Positions 13,982 to 61,641 of a stretch of 64,000 nucleotides of DNA are shown here, in pieces (within the stretch, counting starts at the first letter, position 1; each line of letters starts with the position of its first letter). The notes under the pieces are model-generated. The model made no database searches and had not been told where the DNA came from. It was given only the letters and a program-made list of their open reading frames with translations. The DNA comes from Escherichia phage vB-Eco-KMB39, in the sequence record OR539219.1; one strand, 5' to 3'. Position numbers and translations under genes: made by a program.

Positions 13982-14227
13982 TTAACCGCCAGTTACTTTC
14001 CACAAATCTTCGTTTGCAGCAATCCATTCAGTACGTTGATTTTCTTCATATACAGTAGTATATGCTGCTTTTTCTGAAGGGAATGTCTGGTAATGAGCGC
14101 CAGAAATTTTGTGAACGTCAGAATAAAGAGGGAAAGCTACAGAAATTTCCTTTCCTTCAATTTTCTTATTTCCATCTAATTTCTGCTCAAACGTTTTGAT
14201 ATTAACATAACCGCGAGTACTAGCCAT
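13982..14227 (-). CDS. soc: small outer capsid protein Soc
   Basis: 81 aa beginning MASTRGYVNIKTFEQ, matching T4 Soc as recalled; late promoter upstream, terminator downstream. Confidence 0.85.
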   Translation of the reverse strand: MASTRGYVNIKTFEQKLDGNKKIEGKEISVAFPLYSDVHKISGAHYQTFPSEKAAYTTVYEENQRTEWIAANEDLWKVTGG

Positions 14228-14257: not shown

Positions 14258-14265
14258 TATTTATA
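14258..14265 (-). promoter_or_regulatory. T4 late promoter upstream of soc
   Basis: plus tatttata = minus TATAAATA about 30 nt upstream of soc ATG. Confidence 0.65.
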
Positions 14266-14899: not shown

Positions 14900-15100
14900 A
14901 TGGTACAAAAATTAATGGCACTTGTTAATGCCATCAAAGGTAATAAAAAACGTATAGCTTTTACTATTTCTGCTATGATAGGAATTTTACTTTGGAATTT
15001 TGTTTTATCACCAGTTGCTATTGCTCATGGCGTTAGTATTCCAGTAATTACTCTTGATACATTCGTGGATTTAGCATTTGCTTTAGTTGGGTTAATTTAA
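14900..15100 (+). CDS. small hydrophobic protein on the opposite strand
   Basis: 66 aa, two predicted TM helices; Shine-Dalgarno aaggagg 4 nt before ATG; sits where T4 carries dam. Confidence 0.4.
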   Translation: MVQKLMALVNAIKGNKKRIAFTISAMIGILLWNFVLSPVAIAHGVSIPVITLDTFVDLAFALVGLI

Positions 15101-16125
15101 ATCTTAGCATATTTAGATAGCCGCATTTTAGCCATCAACCCTTGGGCAATATTATTTTTCATATATTCCATAATTTGTTCAGGGGTTGCACCTTCCTTTC
15201 TAATCATATCATTAACATCTTTTGATTTCCAGGGAGATTTGTCCCAAAACATAACCCTTTCTCCTGCATCAACTAATTTAGTCATTCGTTTAATAGTGTC
15301 AGGGTGACGAGGTTCATTATCTAAAACCCATACACGTCTATCTTTAAATGGAACAATTTCTAGGTCTAATTGACCGCCTGTAATAGCTATACCATTTTCA
15401 ATAAAAAGCGAATCTATAGGTCCTTCTAGAACATATACATCGCCATCTTTAACCCGTTCAACACCATAAATTTTTGTTGCCTCAGGATAAGCTTTGATGG
15501 TGATATATTTTTGGGGAGCATCTTTCTTTAATGCACGTCCCTGAAAAGACTCAGCTTTTCCATTAGCATTATAAATTGGAATAACAAGACGAGGCTCAGG
15601 TATTTCCTTTTTATATGTTCCTGGTGCTATACTATTAACTAATTTAGGCCATTCAGTTGTAAACCAAAGATATTTCCATTTATCCTTTGGAATACAACGA
15701 GCTTTTACGTATTTTATAATTGGATGGTCTTCCGCCAGTTTATCTAATCTAATGCATGACGGAAGAGATTTAATTATTTTCTTCTCAGGTTGTTTAGGAA
15801 GTTCTTTAGGTTTTTCTACTGGACGACTTTTACCTTTTTCTTTTCTTATTTCAAAGATATACTCACGATATAAATCAGGTTCAAACTCCTTTAAATATAT
15901 TCCGATTGGTGCATGATAGTTACAGTTATAACAATGAATATTTCCTTCATTATTATCACCATAATACCATCCACGGGCTTTATTTTGGTCGGTTTTTGAA
16001 TCTCCACAAACAGGACATCTAAACCGTAATTTAAAAGTTGAACTATTATTTACTTGTGCGAATTTAGGTAAATGAGCTAGCGCACGATATGCAAACTCAT
16101 TATCAATCCAAGGTATTGATGACAT
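15097..16125 (-). CDS. 61: DNA primase
   Basis: 342 aa equals T4 gp61; N-terminal zinc ribbon CPVCGDS...HCYNC; TOPRIM-like core. Confidence 0.9.
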   Translation of the reverse strand: MSSIPWIDNEFAYRALAHLPKFAQVNNSSTFKLRFRCPVCGDSKTDQNKARGWYYGDNNEGNIHCYNCNYHAPIGIYLKEFEPDLYREYIFEIRKEKGKSRPVEKPKELPKQPEKKIIKSLPSCIRLDKLAEDHPIIKYVKARCIPKDKWKYLWFTTEWPKLVNSIAPGTYKKEIPEPRLVIPIYNANGKAESFQGRALKKDAPQKYITIKAYPEATKIYGVERVKDGDVYVLEGPIDSLFIENGIAITGGQLDLEIVPFKDRRVWVLDNEPRHPDTIKRMTKLVDAGERVMFWDKSPWKSKDVNDMIRKEGATPEQIMEYMKNNIAQGLMAKMRLSKYAKI

Positions 16126-16127
16126 TT

Positions 16128-16292
16128 TTACTCTTCTTTTTCTTTAGATTCCTCTTTTTTCTTTTTAGGAATCTGTTCAGGACCTTTATTTACTACAGCG
16201 CCTGACGTTGTTCCAGTAGAGATATTTTCAGGATTACCACCTGAATCTCCAGCTACCATATCTTCTTTAATAAATTCTTTATATGTTTTCAT
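16128..16292 (-). CDS. small protein with capsid-targeting-sequence-like N-terminus
   Basis: 54 aa ORF read by eye (MKTYKEFIKEDMVAGDSGG...); below track cutoff. Confidence 0.3.
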   Translation of the reverse strand: MKTYKEFIKEDMVAGDSGGNPENISTGTTSGAVVNKGPEQIPKKKKEESKEKEE

Positions 16293-16293
16293 A

Positions 16294-16920
16294 TTAACCT
16301 CTATTCATAAAAGCATTAAAAATTTGGTCATCAATAGAAACTTTTACTTTAAACTGTTTTTCCGATGGTAATTCATATCCGCATATTACAATTTTGTGAT
16401 CAATATCAAAATACACAGAAGCAATATGATTAATGGTGTTTTCAGTAAAGTCTAAATCAACATCAATATCTTTTTGACCACAACCCAAAGGATAAATAAT
16501 GCGAGTAATTCGATTATCTTTAACAAAGATTCCACCAATATACTCTGTGCTGCGTTTAAAGTCTACGCGCCGCCGAAATGAAAAATATTCAGGCTCTTTA
16601 TGAGCTCGGCTCATAGGACACAACGAGTAACTAGAGTAAGAGATGTCAAATCCTACGCCTTCGATATGAGCCAAAGTGTCACGATTAAACCAATTATAAT
16701 CGTACGCCAAGTCCATTAGATTATAATATGTAAAAGGCACCGGATTAACATCACTAGTCACAAGCACGTAATTAGCAACTGCTATAATTTCATTATTTTT
16801 AACAAATACAAATCTTGATTGATGCGAATGACCTGGACCTGCGTTTTCACGATTAATGATATAACACTGGGCACCTTTATATTTGTACGTGTCTTTGCAC
16901 TTGTGCATTTGATAGAGCAT
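16294..16920 (-). CDS. hypothetical protein (61.2 position)
   Basis: 208 aa ORF. Confidence 0.45.
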   Translation of the reverse strand: MLYQMHKCKDTYKYKGAQCYIINRENAGPGHSHQSRFVFVKNNEIIAVANYVLVTSDVNPVPFTYYNLMDLAYDYNWFNRDTLAHIEGVGFDISYSSYSLCPMSRAHKEPEYFSFRRRVDFKRSTEYIGGIFVKDNRITRIIYPLGCGQKDIDVDLDFTENTINHIASVYFDIDHKIVICGYELPSEKQFKVKVSIDDQIFNAFMNRG

Positions 16921-17213
16921 TATTCACCTACCACTTCAGCGATGATATTTTTGTTATTAAAGTTTTTATCGCAATACAGAACATAATTATACTGCATTAC
17001 ACCACCAGACTTAAGTTGTTTTTGCACTTCAGCTTTCATTTCAGGACGATCGCGCTCAACGATATTCATAATATCCGCTTCAATTTGAGTTTCAACCTCA
17101 GTCTGATCCGCAGTCATAGACCATTCGCACAAATCTTTATCATAACCTGCCATAGCAGGCTGAGCAGCACAAGAAGCTAAAGCAAAAATTGCGGCAAAGA
17201 TAAATTTTTTCAT
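16920..17213 (-). CDS. sp: spackle periplasmic protein
   Basis: 97 aa equals T4 Sp; cleavable signal peptide. Confidence 0.65.
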   Translation of the reverse strand: MKKFIFAAIFALASCAAQPAMAGYDKDLCEWSMTADQTEVETQIEADIMNIVERDRPEMKAEVQKQLKSGGVMQYNYVLYCDKNFNNKNIIAEVVGE

Positions 17214-17273
17214 GATAATCTCCTCAGTAGTTTATGTTTATATAGTATCTCAATTTCCAACAAAAGTAAACAG

Positions 17274-17576
17274 TTATTTTAAAACTTCTGCGTAATCACA
17301 TGTTACAAACTGTTTCTCTAGCTTGACGATTTTACGAAAGTATCTTTTACATTGACGAATCTGTCGCTTAGTAGGGCGCACAGCAAACTTAATAAATTCC
17401 ACTCGACCAAATGGAGGGCTTTCTTCTGATGGAATATCTAACACCAATTCCCACGTATCTGCAATAAGTGCTTTGAATTGAGTATTTTTCCTGACGTTAT
17501 ACGGAGTAGGTTTAAATAAAACCGTATGCATATTACCCTCGCCAATCAGATTCAAAAACTTTTTTATCATTAACAA
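17274..17576 (-). CDS. hypothetical protein (61.4 position)
   Basis: 100 aa ORF. Confidence 0.4.
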   Translation of the reverse strand: MLMIKKFLNLIGEGNMHTVLFKPTPYNVRKNTQFKALIADTWELVLDIPSEESPPFGRVEFIKFAVRPTKRQIRQCKRYFRKIVKLEKQFVTCDYAEVLK

Positions 17577-17754: not shown

Positions 17755-17784
17755 ACTATACCATAGTCTTGTCAGATTGTAAAC
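17755..17784 (-). promoter_or_regulatory. early promoter upstream of dmd
   Basis: minus strand GTTTACA - 17 - tggTATAGT. Confidence 0.55.
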
Positions 17785-60154: not shown

Positions 60155-60481
60155 TCAATTAGAAAATAAATTTATCCAAGATTGTTCTTTAATTAAAAAC
60201 GGCTCAGAATCATATGCCATTAAACTTTGCGTAATTAATCCTTTAAAAGGTCCATCAATAAATTCCATGGTAAAATATGGAATTTTATTCATTAGCCGTG
60301 CATTAGGAGCAGTACATAAAACTCTGCATCCTTTGAATACACCTTTTTGTAATTTGTATTGCTTGGGATAAAATTCGCTCAAAATGTTATTATTTGCTAA
60401 AATTTCAAAATGATTCACCAATTTATTTTTAATAGTTTTTGGCGAAAAATAAAGATATTCGAAAAGTTGCGTATCTGTCAT
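60155..60481 (-). CDS. hypothetical protein
   Basis: about 108 aa from internal Met (MMTDTQ); track ORF start overlaps upstream gene by 55 nt. Confidence 0.35.
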
Positions 60482-61074
60482 CATTGCATTCCAATTACGA
60501 AAAACTGCGGACGAGTAATACCACCAATACAGCATTTACTATTGCAGCAATATTGCACAGTTTCAATATGAATATCGTAAATTTTATCCATATCAGGAGA
60601 TTTAACAGGCTCATCGATTATATACAAAATTCGAGAAAGCGATAAACCTCTGAACTTGCTACCTCTATTACCAACAAAACTACGGACAGAATCAGTAAAT
60701 AAACGGAATCGAATATCATCGCTAGAATAACGAGAAAATTCTTTTTTAATGCGGCCCACAGAAATTTTAGCGTAAGCTGAAGTATTAGAAAGAACAATAA
60801 CTGTTCCACCATCATACAACCAATTAGCGGCAAAATTAGTTACTGCAGTTGATTTACCGGATTGTCTGCCACCATCTAAACGAAGTGTACAATATTCTTT
60901 AAATAAATACGACGAATCAGGTACATAAAATCCACTATTACAAATTTCTTCTACTCTAGCGTCAGAATGGTGTGTAAAAGCATTCATCAGGGATAGATAA
61001 GGACCAGTTAAAAATGTTCTCATGTTATTTCTCTTAAGGTTTTTGGGCCATTCCGTGGCGCATGAATTGTCCAT
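60481..61074 (-). CDS. P-loop NTPase-like protein
   Basis: Walker A GGRQSGKST, Walker B-like ILYIIDEP; start may be internal Met at about 61023. Confidence 0.45.
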   Translation of the reverse strand: MDNSCATEWPKNLKRNNMRTFLTGPYLSLMNAFTHHSDARVEEICNSGFYVPDSSYLFKEYCTLRLDGGRQSGKSTAVTNFAANWLYDGGTVIVLSNTSAYAKISVGRIKKEFSRYSSDDIRFRLFTDSVRSFVGNRGSKFRGLSLSRILYIIDEPVKSPDMDKIYDIHIETVQYCCNSKCCIGGITRPQFFVIGMQ

Positions 61075-61167: not shown

Positions 61168-61641
61168 TTATTTGAACGATTTAACGTACTGAATAGAACC
61201 TTTACTATTTACAAAGGCAATTTTACCATTTTTATTATACATGGTAGCAGTACGCTGATAGCCATAAGTTTGCTTACCAGATTGATAACCAACTAATGCA
61301 AAATTATCTTCACCCATTTTATTCTGTTTAGCGCGAATGCGTTCATGACCATGTGCCATAAGAACCTTAGCATCACCAGTTACAATGGATCGACGAGTTT
61401 TTTCATCTTCAACTGTATTAACAAAGTCGTCAAATGAATCAAATTTAGCATGAGATTTATTATACAGTTTTCCATCTACTGCATAATTATATCCCTGTAC
61501 ATCCATCTCAACTTCTGTACCATCATCCAATACAGCAGTAATTTTCTGTCCTTTTTTAAATTTCAAAAGATCAGTAAAAGATTCAGCAATAATTTGAGAA
61601 TTAATAGCTGCTTCAGTGATAAATTCTTGATATGTTTTCAT
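61168..61641 (-). CDS. internal (capsid-packaged) protein with capsid targeting sequence
   Basis: 157 aa; N-terminus MKTYQEFITEA matches the T4 internal-protein targeting sequence cleaved after Glu; early promoter upstream. Confidence 0.65.
   Translation of the reverse strand: MKTYQEFITEAAINSQIIAESFTDLLKFKKGQKITAVLDDGTEVEMDVQGYNYAVDGKLYNKSHAKFDSFDDFVNTVEDEKTRRSIVTGDAKVLMAHGHERIRAKQNKMGEDNFALVGYQSGKQTYGYQRTATMYNKNGKIAFVNSKGSIQYVKSFK

What the first reader, a model, noticed from the sequence alone, without database searches (positions are those of the whole stretch)
16128..16292. Small ORF with a capsid-targeting-sequence-like N-terminus next to the primase gene
A 54-aa ORF between gene 61 and the 208-aa gene begins MKTYKEFIKE, closely matching the N-terminus of the internal protein at 61168-61641 (MKTYQEFITEA). 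In T4 that N-terminal sequence directs proteins into the prohead and is cleaved after the Glu by the prohead protease. A second, tiny protein carrying it would be a candidate packaged and injected peptide, located far from the internal-protein locus.
Basis: partly seen in the sequence, partly recalled or inferred. Interest (0 to 1): 0.5.

Follow-up and report, generated by a model that had tools for sequence, protein, structure and literature searches.

The report
Capsid-arm mimic peptide, gene 61.1
This 54-codon gene of a T4-like phage (T4 gene 61.1, so far 'hypothetical') encodes a tiny protein that begins with the phage's head-targeting tag and then copies the maturation cleavage site and the first 26 residues of the mature major capsid protein. 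It is therefore most likely an uncharacterised, protease-trimmed minor head component.

Summary
The ORF at 16128-16292 (minus strand) is T4 gene 61.1. Its first 10 residues (MKTYKEFIKE) match the capsid targeting sequence (CTS) of the internal protein at 61168-61641 at 8 of 10 positions, including the four positions shown experimentally to matter. No other ORF in the window comes close.

The CTS is not the main feature, though. [quoted passage not shown] That stretch holds the gp21 cleavage site (FLTE|A) and the 'N-fist' of mature gp23*.

Across more than 60 family representatives, three features are conserved: a hydrophobic-x-Glu site, the N-fist-like segment and a lysine-rich tail. The part in front of them varies. 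It is a 10-residue CTS in T-even phages and a 105-residue helical domain in Karamvirus, Tegunavirus, Acinetobacter and Vibrio phages.

The long-form homologue of Yersinia phage phiR1-RT was found in purified virions (9 peptides, 62% coverage).

Best reading (about 0.5): a prohead-targeted, gp21-cleaved small head protein that releases a free N-fist-like peptide. Packaging in T-even phages is unproven, and what the peptide does is unknown.

The parts
16128..16292 (-). Gene 61.1 CDS (54 codons plus stop); PHROG 1823
   Evidence: ORF list. Identical in layout to T4 61.1 and differs from it by 2 residues. phrog_1823 E 7e-34. Conserved across genera.
16263..16292 (-). Codons 1-10, MKTYKEFIKE: CTS-like leader ending in the predicted gp21 site I-K-E|D
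   Evidence: 8/10 identical to the internal protein's CTS, and unique in the window. Y4, F7, I8 and E10 are the CTS determinants summarised in PMC9026906. E10 aligns with gp23 E65, the known cleavage residue.
16179..16262 (-). Codons 11-38, DMVAGDSGGNPENISTGTTSGAVVNKGP: paralogue of the gp23* N-terminus (N-fist, gp23 66-91, through P93)
   Evidence: BLASTP of 61.1 aa 2-38 against gp23 aa 57-93: 43% identity, ungapped, E 1e-8. The family profile against all PDB sequences hits only gp23, E 1.4e-5. Five genera, all against all, E 1e-4 to 1e-10. The conserved columns coincide. The N-fist is defined as residues 66-91 in PMC7136217.
16128..16178 (-). Codons 39-54 plus stop, EQIPKKKKEESKEKEE: Lys-rich charged tail
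   Evidence: A K/R-rich tail follows G-P in nearly all family members. AF2 predicts a low-confidence helix at 43-53.
16155..16160 (-). A6 run inside the tail. Loss of one A gives the 62-aa T6-type variant, with a strongly basic tail that overlaps the start of gene 61
   Evidence: An in-silico 1-nt deletion reproduces P0002 exactly (…KKKKRNLKKKKSKNVINTLD). The mature peptide's pI changes from 5.0 to 10.0.
16297..16301 (-). GAGGT ribosome-binding site of 61.1, inside the end of gene 61.2 (stop TAA at 16294-16296)
   Evidence: Read directly from the sequence.
15097..16125 (-). Gene 61 (DNA primase); its start lies 2 nt after the 61.1 stop. Invariant downstream neighbour of 61.1 in all genera examined
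17755..17783 (-). Sigma-70-like promoter (TTTACA-17-TATAGT, with TG) downstream of gene 41. Plausible early promoter of the dmd-61.4-sp-61.2-61.1-61 unit
   Evidence: Consensus scan only. T4 61.1 RNA is classed 'early'. No terminator-like site lies between it and 61.1.
61168..61641 (-). Internal head protein (157 aa) carrying the reference CTS MKTYQEFITE|A (codons 1-10 = 61612-61641)

Best explanation
Gene 61.1 encodes a small prohead-directed substrate of the gp21 maturation protease. [quoted passage not shown]

Proposed steps:
1. The gene is transcribed with the early dmd-61 unit and translated from its own RBS. (Transcription class shown for T4; the rest inferred.)
2. The 10-residue leader MKTYKEFIKE acts like the CTS of the internal proteins and docks the protein to the scaffolding core while the prohead forms. 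Alternatively the gp23-like segment does so, because in gp23 this segment lies inside the prohead against the core. (Inferred.)
3. gp21 cuts after Glu10 (I-K-E|D), the position that aligns with gp23 Glu65|Ala66. (Inferred from sequence and family-wide conservation.)
4. This releases a 44-residue, 4.6-kDa peptide. Its first 26 residues mimic the gp23* N-fist and are followed by a Lys-rich tail. Alone it is disordered, as the N-fist is before capsid expansion. It then either stays in the head (on DNA, or in an N-fist docking site of the lattice) or is lost.

In other genera the same C-terminal module hangs behind a 105-residue helical domain. In T-even phages that domain has been replaced by a captured CTS.
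For: - Uniqueness of the CTS match in the window.
- All four experimentally defined CTS positions are retained. K5 is tolerated in the packaged phiR1-RT IpIII.
- In-register homology to gp23 57-93. This gp23 segment lies inside the prohead, probably contacts the core, and later forms the N-fist.
- A Glu at position -1 or -2 before the [MV][VT][AGS]GD core, in most members with a hydrophobic residue two positions upstream, occurs in essentially all of about 60 representatives. This holds whether the module sits at residue 10 or residue 110.
- CC31 and phiR1-RT use T4-type CTSs on their IPs but have long-form 61.1. The short CTS form is therefore derived, and the fusion point is exactly the cleavage Glu.
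- phiR1-RT Gp036 (annotated gp61.1) was found in purified virions with 9 unique peptides and 61.9% coverage. That ranks among true minor structural proteins and above obvious carry-over such as DNA polymerase (3 peptides, 4%). The authors re-annotated it as structural (PMC6893735 Tables S3/S4).
- An exact late-promoter motif TATAAATA lies 35 nt upstream of that gene's ATG.
- T4 ipI, ipII and ipIII are also in the 'early RNA' class of the same data set, so early transcription does not argue against a head role.
- Other head genes (soc here at 13982-14227; gene 40 in T4) lie in the same early-strand region.
Against: - There is no direct evidence for packaging or cleavage of the short form in any T-even phage.
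- In the T4 time-resolved proteome the protein has no class (NA) and was not found in the stored part of the intensity table.
- The T4 head mass-spectrometry paper that was searched does not list it.
- No TATAAATA lies within 600 nt upstream in this phage or in T4.
- The mature peptide is small enough to escape through the capsomer pores that let scaffold fragments out. In this phage it is acidic (pI 5.0), unlike the basic internal proteins.
- Published 3.3-3.4 A T4 capsid maps report no extra N-fist-like density. The only unassigned density is helical, under gp24.
- CTS-like starts are not fully specific. A loose motif hits about 0.7% of ORFs.
- The phiR1-RT virion list also contains clear non-structural proteins. 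Its coverage figure cannot show whether the C-terminal module is retained.
- The invariant position next to the primase gene could point to a different role.
Confidence: 0.5

Rival explanations
1. Cytoplasmic mimic of the gp23 cleavage junction. Made early, gp61.1 would act outside the head as a decoy or competitive substrate, or as a regulator of gp21. It could buffer stray protease activity, which host CBASS systems sense. Alternatively it could act as a decoy for host factors that recognise the N-terminal quarter of gp23.
For: Early transcription class and no late promoter in T-even phages. A perfect in-register copy of the gp23 site and its P' side. gp21 activity in the cytoplasm is now known to trigger CBASS through I/LxE-containing loops (PMC12991175). 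The first ~100 residues of gp23 stabilise the Gol/EF-Tu interaction used by Lit (PMC3014915). The protein was not seen in T4 head or cell proteomes.
Against: The phiR1-RT homologue is particle-associated and has a late-promoter motif. A decoy would not need a CTS whose targeting residues are conserved. No defence phenotype is known. The homologous stretch, as I recall the Gol coordinates (about 93-122, from memory and not verified here), stops just before the Gol core.
Confidence: 0.2
2. Assembly modulator acting on the capsid lattice. As a free N-fist, the peptide would occupy N-fist docking sites on gp23. It could prevent premature or aberrant gp23 association, tune head length or expansion, or cap sites left empty next to the portal or the gp24 vertices. 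Delivery into the next host would not be the point.
For: The conserved columns of the family are the same as the invariant columns of the gp23 N-fist. The N-fist contacts four subunits and helps form the Soc site. Head-length mutations A66D, A94V and G97S map to this gp23 region. N-fists facing the portal are disordered. 61.1 is detected only in the lineages whose gp23 keeps the complete T4-type junction and N-fist. In cyanophages most MCP matches start only around gp23 residue 73-85, and no cyanophage appears among the ten most frequent organism names of the 61.1 hits, so any such hits number fewer than 32 records.
Against: No extra N-fist density has been reported in high-resolution T4 heads. 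The peptide alone is predicted to be disordered, which neither supports nor excludes this.
Confidence: 0.12
3. Replication-linked small protein or leader ORF. Its conserved place immediately upstream of primase gene 61 would reflect translational coupling to, or a function with, the primase-helicase. The resemblance to gp23 would be an ancient remnant without a present head function.
For: 61.1 lies directly upstream of gene 61 in Tequatrovirus, Karamvirus, Tegunavirus, Tulanevirus, Lasallevirus and Schizotequatrovirus (in Krischvirus two small ORFs intervene). The stop-to-start distance here is 2 nt. In the T6-type variant the ORF overlaps the start of gene 61.
Against: A mere leader would not keep a 28-residue amino-acid pattern invariant across subfamilies. 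It would not keep a protease site or acquire a CTS. Virion detection of the homologue is unexplained by this model.
Confidence: 0.08
4. Coincidence: a short low-complexity ORF whose N-terminal motif and Gly/Ser/Thr-rich core resemble the CTS and gp23 by chance.
For: The core is rich in G, S, T and A. Pfam and NCBIfam give no hit.
Against: Composition-adjusted BLAST gives E 1e-8. A profile search of 177,635 PDB sequences returns only gp23. The match is reproduced for five genera at the same gp23 coordinates. 51 clusters at 50% identity were found in a 1.8-billion-protein library.
Confidence: 0.03

Closest known systems
T4 internal proteins IPI, IPII, IPIII and the polymorphic IPs of T-even phages (CTS-bearing, gp21-processed, injected head proteins)
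   Same: An N-terminal 10-residue leader of the MKTYQEFIAE type with identical residues at positions 1-4, 6-8 and 10. A predicted I-x-E| cleavage. A small, Lys-containing product. RNA in the same 'early' class in T4.
   Different: It lies not in the IP loci but in the 41-61 replication cluster. It is conserved across the whole family rather than hypervariable. The mature part is only 44 residues, disordered, and homologous to gp23. It is acidic in this phage. Packaging has not been demonstrated.
gp23 major capsid protein: end of the N-terminal propeptide, the Glu65|Ala66 maturation site, and the N-fist (residues 66-91) of gp23*
   Same: Ungapped homology of 61.1 aa 2-38 to gp23 aa 57-93, with the cleavage Glu in register. 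The invariant positions are shared (G70/D71, G73, I79, A80, G82, S85, G86, G92, P93). In long forms the similarity runs on to about gp23 residue 106.
   Different: No HK97-fold body and no Pfam Gp23 match. The gp23 N-arm continuation is replaced by a Lys/Arg-rich tail. It is a separate gene in an early transcription unit. Similarity to the own-genome gp23 is no greater than to foreign gp23, so there is no ongoing gene conversion.
Long-form gp61.1 proteins (PHROG 2086; e.g. phiR1-RT Gp036, CC31 61.1, Acj61 61.1, KVP40-type 159-aa protein)
   Same: The same C-terminal module (hydrophobic-x-Glu, MVAGD...I-A-S-G-T-T-[ST]-G...G-P, basic tail) and the same position upstream of gene 61.
   Different: They carry a conserved 105-residue helical N-domain of unknown fold (AF2 pLDDT about 80; no Foldseek PDB match) where this phage has a 10-residue CTS. 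Only the long form has proteomic evidence of virion association.
T4 internal peptides II and VII and other gp21 products of core proteins gp22/gp67/gp68 (from established T4 literature; partly, 'Gp67 ... precursor to internal peptides')
   Same: Small peptides generated inside the prohead by gp21 cleavage after Glu. Some are retained in the mature head.
   Different: Those derive from scaffold and core proteins encoded in the late head-gene cluster, and are highly acidic. gp61.1 has its own gene, a CTS and a capsid-protein-like sequence.

Membership tests
gp61.1 family (PHROG 1823 / C-terminal module of PHROG 2086) | Significant full-length profile match | tested here: met
   phrog_1823 E 7e-34 over residues 1-54. 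phrog_2086 E 2.6e-16 over residues 8-53, against profile positions 109-154.
gp61.1 family (PHROG 1823 / C-terminal module of PHROG 2086) | Position immediately upstream of primase gene 61 on the same strand | tested here: met
   Window, T4, and six further genera.
CTS-bearing T4-type internal head proteins | N-terminal ~10-residue CTS with the targeting determinants at positions 4 and 7 | tested here: met
   Y4 and F7 are identical to IPII/IPIII-type CTSs and to the co-resident IP. This is a sequence criterion only.
CTS-bearing T4-type internal head proteins | gp21 processing site (I/L at position 8, Glu at position 10; I/L-x-E|) | tested here: met
   I8-K9-E10|D11. The Glu is conserved family-wide and aligns with gp23 E65. 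Cleavage itself was not tested.
CTS-bearing T4-type internal head proteins | Physical presence in proheads or virions, and cleavage in vivo | not testable with these tools
   Indirect evidence only: the long-form homologue is in phiR1-RT virions. The protein was not detected or classified in T4 data sets.
CTS-bearing T4-type internal head proteins | Expression compatible with prohead assembly (late, or early plus late) | tested here: inconclusive
   No TATAAATA within 600 nt upstream. T4 61.1 RNA is 'early', but so are ipI-III in the same data set.
CTS-bearing T4-type internal head proteins | Basic mature protein encoded in the hyperplastic IP loci (near e / 57B) | tested here: not met
   The mature peptide has pI 5.0 (7 K against 9 D/E) in this phage. 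The T6-type frameshift variant has pI 10.0. The gene lies 45 kb from the IP gene.
Major capsid protein gp23 family (HK97 fold, Pfam Gp23) | HK97-fold body / Pfam Gp23 domain | tested here: not met
   No Pfam hit at E up to 10. The protein is 54 aa. Homology is limited to gp23 residues 57-93. Database names such as 'major capsid domain-containing protein' overstate the relation.

The most novel reading that the evidence does not exclude
The conserved C-terminal module of gp61.1 would be a free-standing N-fist, an obligatory minor head component of non-cyanophage T4-like phages. It would enter the prohead by mimicking the part of gp23 that contacts the scaffolding core. gp21 would trim it to the same N-terminus as gp23*, and it would then occupy N-fist sockets that the lattice cannot fill itself (around the portal or the vertices), or tether DNA through its basic tail. 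By extension, the classical CTS of the internal proteins, the first 10 residues of gp24 and the start of UvsW.1 would all be versions of one ancestral core-docking and cleavage motif, [YFI]-x-x-[FL]-[IL]-x-E|, derived from the gp23 propeptide end. gp61.1 would be the evolutionary link.
Probability: 0.2. Interest if true: 0.8.

Novelty: new variant of a known kind. Interest (0 to 1): 0.6.

Why it matters
T4 head assembly is among the best-studied assembly pathways, yet how proteins are recruited to the scaffolding core is still called 'mysterious' in a 2023 review. gp61.1 offers a natural 54-residue reagent that joins the CTS, the gp21 site and the N-terminus of mature gp23 in one chain. It is conserved from coliphages to Vibrio and Acinetobacter phages.

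If it is packaged and cleaved, four things follow:
- It adds a conserved component to the T4 head.
- It suggests that the CTS works by imitating the gp23 propeptide end.
- It gives a handle on what the N-fist segment binds inside the prohead.
- It may be useful for the T4 protein-packaging and vaccine platforms that rely on the CTS.

If instead it acts in the cytoplasm as a cleavage-site mimic, it is relevant to the newly described sensing of prohead proteases by CBASS.

Tried and rejected
1. Co-variation of the 61.1 leader with IP CTSs in a genus with a different leader. In Krischvirus G37-3 (MIGFKQFVEE) no IP-like ORF with a similar start was found in 11-125 kb of the genome. Only the UvsW.1-like ORF resembled it. 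Inconclusive.
2. Gene conversion or co-evolution with the own-genome gp23. 61.1 proteins are no closer to their own gp23 than to foreign ones, and the gp23 N-fist is almost invariant, so co-variation is not testable.
3. Pfam and NCBIfam gave no hits.
4. AF2 of the short form gave pLDDT 61, with helices 4-11 and 43-53 and a coil core. AF2 of the long form gave a moderately confident helical N-domain and a disordered C-module. Foldseek against the PDB found nothing, so the N-domain gave no functional clue.
5. Late-promoter search: none here or in T4, but an exact TATAAATA at -35 in phiR1-RT.
6. The T4 proteome and the T4 head-MS supplements do not record the protein. Non-detection is weak evidence, because the diagnostic peptide would be semi-tryptic and 26 residues long.
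7. Arithmetic on the 61.9% coverage of phiR1-RT Gp036 cannot decide whether the C-terminal module was among the peptides.
8. Programmed frameshifting at the A-run was considered and dropped. There is no X XXY YYZ heptamer in frame and the run has only six A. The two tails are better explained as a natural 1-nt indel polymorphism.
9. Literature searches for gp61.1, P39228 and NP_049649 found no functional study. The T4 genome review (PMC150520) is not in the library.
10. An anti-Lit (Gol) decoy was kept only as a sub-case of rival 1. The Gol coordinates could not be verified in the available text.

Full report
WHAT IS THERE. The window comes from a Tequatrovirus (T4-like phage). The region 15000-17300 is 99% identical to Escherichia phages vB_EcoM_SP1 and F25, and 95-99% identical to more than 400 further records. 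The flagged ORF (16128-16292, minus strand, 54 aa, ATG, GAGGT RBS 5 nt upstream) lies between primase gene 61 (15097-16125) and the 208-aa gene 61.2 (16294-16920). It corresponds to T4 gene 61.1, annotated 'gp61.1 hypothetical protein'. The T4 protein differs at two residues, Y4F and T26I, and three further nucleotide differences are synonymous. I found no functional study of it in the searchable literature.

The product starts MKTYKEFIKE. The internal head protein at 61168-61641 (Pfam DUF7412; PHROG 'internal virion protein') starts MKTYQEFITE. That is 8 of 10 identical residues. Among 978 ATG-ORFs in six frames, no other N-terminus shares more than 4 of 11 positions.

According to the review PMC9026906, which summarises Mullaney and Black 1996, amber-suppressor scanning of the IPIII CTS placed targeting mainly at residues 4 and 7 and processing at residues 8 and 10. 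All four (Y4, F7, I8, E10) are identical in gp61.1. The two differences (Q5K, T9K) fall at other positions. K5 occurs naturally in the IpIII of phage phiR1-RT (MKTYKEFLVE), a protein recovered from virions with 25 peptides.

Several database records name 61.1 homologues 'major capsid (domain-containing) protein'. The reason is a real local homology. gp61.1 residues 2-38 align without gaps to T4 gp23 residues 57-93 (16/37 identical, composition-adjusted E 1e-8). A profile of 16 family members, searched against all 177,635 distinct PDB sequences, returns only gp23 chains (E 1.4e-5; profile 3-40 against gp23 58-95). 61.1 proteins of five genera each hit the same gp23 coordinates in all five gp23 proteins (E 1e-4 to 1e-10; up to 59% identity).

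The register is informative. gp61.1 Glu10|Asp11 falls exactly on gp23 Glu65|Ala66, the bond cut by the gp21 prohead protease. Residues 11-36 fall on gp23* residues 66-91, the 'N-fist'. Before expansion this gp23 segment is disordered, points into the prohead and probably contacts the scaffolding core. Head-length mutations A66D, A94V and G97S map to this N-terminal region of gp23. After expansion the segment moves outside, contacts four subunits and helps build the Soc site. The columns that are invariant in gp23 (G70, D71, G73, I79, A80, G82, S85, G86, G92, P93) are the ones most conserved in the 61.1 family.

THE FAMILY. An exhaustive HMMER search of 1.84 billion representatives found 51 clusters at 50% identity. 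Together with eight phage loci read here, they show one constant module and a variable front.

The constant module has three parts:
- a Glu one or two residues before an [MV][VT][AGS]-G-D core, in most members with a hydrophobic residue two positions upstream (I-K-E, L-N-E, L-F-E, L-Y-E, V-D-E, and so on), which is the I/L-x-E specificity of gp21;
- the N-fist-like stretch ...G-G-x3-4-I-A-x-G-x-T-[ST]-G-x-[VI]-x-N-x-G-P;
- a Lys/Arg-rich tail.

The front varies:
- a 10-residue CTS-like leader (Tequatrovirus and close genera);
- a leader with 2 extra residues that moves the site to L-N-E;
- a 15- to 23-residue leader (Krischvirus, Tulanevirus);
- a conserved helical domain of about 105 residues (PHROG 2086) in Karamvirus CC31, Tegunavirus phiR1-RT/TG1, Acinetobacter phage Acj61 and KVP40-like Vibrio phages.

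In six of the seven other genera examined the gene lies directly upstream of gene 61; in Krischvirus two small ORFs intervene.

CC31 and phiR1-RT carry T4-type CTSs on their own internal proteins (MKTYQEFINEA, MKTYNEFITEA, MKTYKEFLVEA) yet have long-form 61.1. The long form also occurs outside the Tevenvirinae. The short form is therefore most simply a derived state in which the N-domain was replaced by a CTS, joined exactly at the cleavage Glu. I take this replacement as the best, though inferential, argument that getting the module to the protease inside the prohead is what matters.

EXPERIMENTAL HINT OF VIRION ASSOCIATION. In the LC-MS/MS analysis of purified phiR1-RT particles (PMC6893735, Table S3), 'Gp036 gp61.1 conserved hypothetical protein' (160 aa) was identified with 9 unique peptides, 61.9% coverage and a score of 44. 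It is listed next to gp12 (10 peptides), the DNA end protector gp2 (11) and Inh (5). It is clearly above evident carry-over such as DNA polymerase (3 peptides, 4%). The authors re-annotated it as structural. I confirmed from the genome that Gp036 is the long-form homologue, ending ...LPVLE|SMVAGN...IASGTTTGAVVNKGP...KRKRLKVNLSKL. An exact TATAAATA lies 35 nt upstream of its ATG.

Caveats: the same list contains non-structural proteins. The coverage figure can be reached with or without the C-terminal module, so it does not show cleavage or retention of the N-fist-like peptide.

EXPRESSION IN T-EVEN PHAGES. There is no late-promoter motif within 600 nt upstream here or in T4. A sigma-70-like promoter downstream of gene 41 probably drives the dmd-61 unit. 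In the T4 multi-omics study, 61.1 RNA is 'early' and the protein has no class. However, ipI, ipII, ipIII, hoc and wac are also 'early RNA' in that classification, so it does not discriminate. Non-detection of the protein is weak evidence, because after cleavage its only sizeable peptide would be semi-tryptic.

STRUCTURE. AF2 gives low confidence for the short form (pLDDT 61; helices 4-11 and 43-53; coil between). For the long form it gives a helical N-domain (pLDDT about 80) followed by a disordered module. The N-domain has no Foldseek match in the PDB. Disorder of the isolated module matches the behaviour of the gp23 N-terminus before expansion.

INTERPRETATION. Shown:
- a real, conserved gene;
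- a CTS-type leader with all known determinants;
- in-register homology to the gp23 cleavage junction and N-fist;
- family-wide conservation of the cleavage motif, the N-fist-like core and the basic tail;
- virion association of one long-form homologue.

Inferred: targeting to the core, cleavage after Glu10, and the fate and function of the 44-residue product.

I rate 'prohead-targeted, gp21-processed minor head protein' at about 0.5. The rivals are:
- a cytoplasmic cleavage-site mimic or decoy (0.2), relevant to protease sensing by CBASS;
- a lattice or assembly modulator acting as a free N-fist (0.12);
- a primase-linked leader (0.08);
- chance (0.03).

A distributional hint links 61.1 to the N-fist. 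The 61.1 query finds Enterobacterial, Aeromonas, Acinetobacter and Vibrio T4-like phages, and no cyanophage is among the ten most frequent organism names. The gp23 junction/N-fist query matches about 440 cyanophage records, mostly only from about gp23 residue 73-85 onward.

A GENERALISATION WORTH TESTING. With the cleavage Glu as P1, several sequences share an aromatic or aliphatic P7, F/L at P4, I/L at P3 and Glu at P1. They are the CTS (Y4, F7, I8, E10), gp23 (F59, F62, L63, E65), gp24 (I4, L7, L8, E10) and UvsW.1 (F5, F8, L9, E11). P7 and P4 are precisely the CTS 'targeting' positions. The CTS may thus be an imitation of the end of the gp23 propeptide. gp61.1 resembles the CTS upstream of the cut and gp23 downstream of it, so it looks like the link between them. 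This is my inference from the alignments, not an established fact.

VERDICT. The object is an annotated but uncharacterised gene. Its CTS and its capsid-protein mimicry do not appear in the literature I could search, although automatic annotation names hint at the latter. I file it as a new variant of a known kind (CTS-bearing, gp21-processed head proteins), with interest 0.6.

Noticed in passing
L002:19211-19441 (T4), L009:20859-21095 (Krischvirus G37-3), L008:28627-28860 (IME13), L016:9953-10183 (phiR1-RT); not in the window: The 76-aa UvsW.1 protein starts with a CTS-like motif in four genera: MLLEFKQFLYE|A, MISFKRFLVE|A, MGMFQQFIAE|A and MIKPFKEILQE|A. In the phiR1-RT virion proteome the 76-aa 'Gp188 DNA helicase' at exactly this locus has one of the highest scores (196.7; 71% coverage; 8 peptides). 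UvsW.1 may be an unrecognised packaged head protein.
   Followed up: partly
window 16155-16160 (A6 run in the 61.1 tail) and 16100-16130: Deleting one A reproduces the 62-aa T6-type variant (P0002, P0004). Its tail, KKKKRNLKKKKSKNVINTLD, is strongly basic (pI 10.0 against 5.0) and overlaps the start of gene 61. The alternative frame is open in this window too. Two tail versions therefore coexist in nature, and the basic one resembles the tails of other genera more closely.
   Followed up: partly
P0037, P0053, P0058 (metagenomic long forms, 149-251 aa): After the basic tail these proteins continue with M..[FL].FKQFVE[GS]LEA.. and a further conserved domain. This looks like a downstream gene with its own CTS-like start that has been fused to 61.1, or a genuine fusion. 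If real, a CTS-bearing gene sits directly after 61.1 in that lineage.
   Followed up: no
window 13982-14227 (-) with TATAAATA at 14258-14265 (-): The 81-aa ORF appears to be the small outer capsid protein Soc, with its own late-promoter motif, 2 kb downstream of 61.1 on the same strand. I identified it from its sequence and from the position of soc in CC31; no family search was run. Soc binds a site partly built by the gp23 N-fist. The proximity to an N-fist mimic may be coincidental.
   Followed up: no
L014:1966-2000 (phiR1-RT, upstream of g036); L012 upstream of CC31 61.1: An exact late-promoter motif TATAAATA lies 35 nt before the ATG of the long-form 61.1 in phiR1-RT, and a one-mismatch GATAAATA lies 20 nt before it in CC31. 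T4 and this window have none within 600 nt.
   Followed up: partly
window 60481-61074 (-), next to the internal protein gene: A 197-aa ORF (…MRTFLTGPYLSLMNAFTHHSDARVEE…) resembles phiR1-RT g118 (MKYLTAPYLTLMNAFNIRSEAV…), which likewise lies beside IpIII. It is a conserved neighbour of IP genes, of unknown function. In the same phiR1-RT proteome gp57B (153 aa) is also particle-associated (9 peptides, 65% coverage).
   Followed up: no
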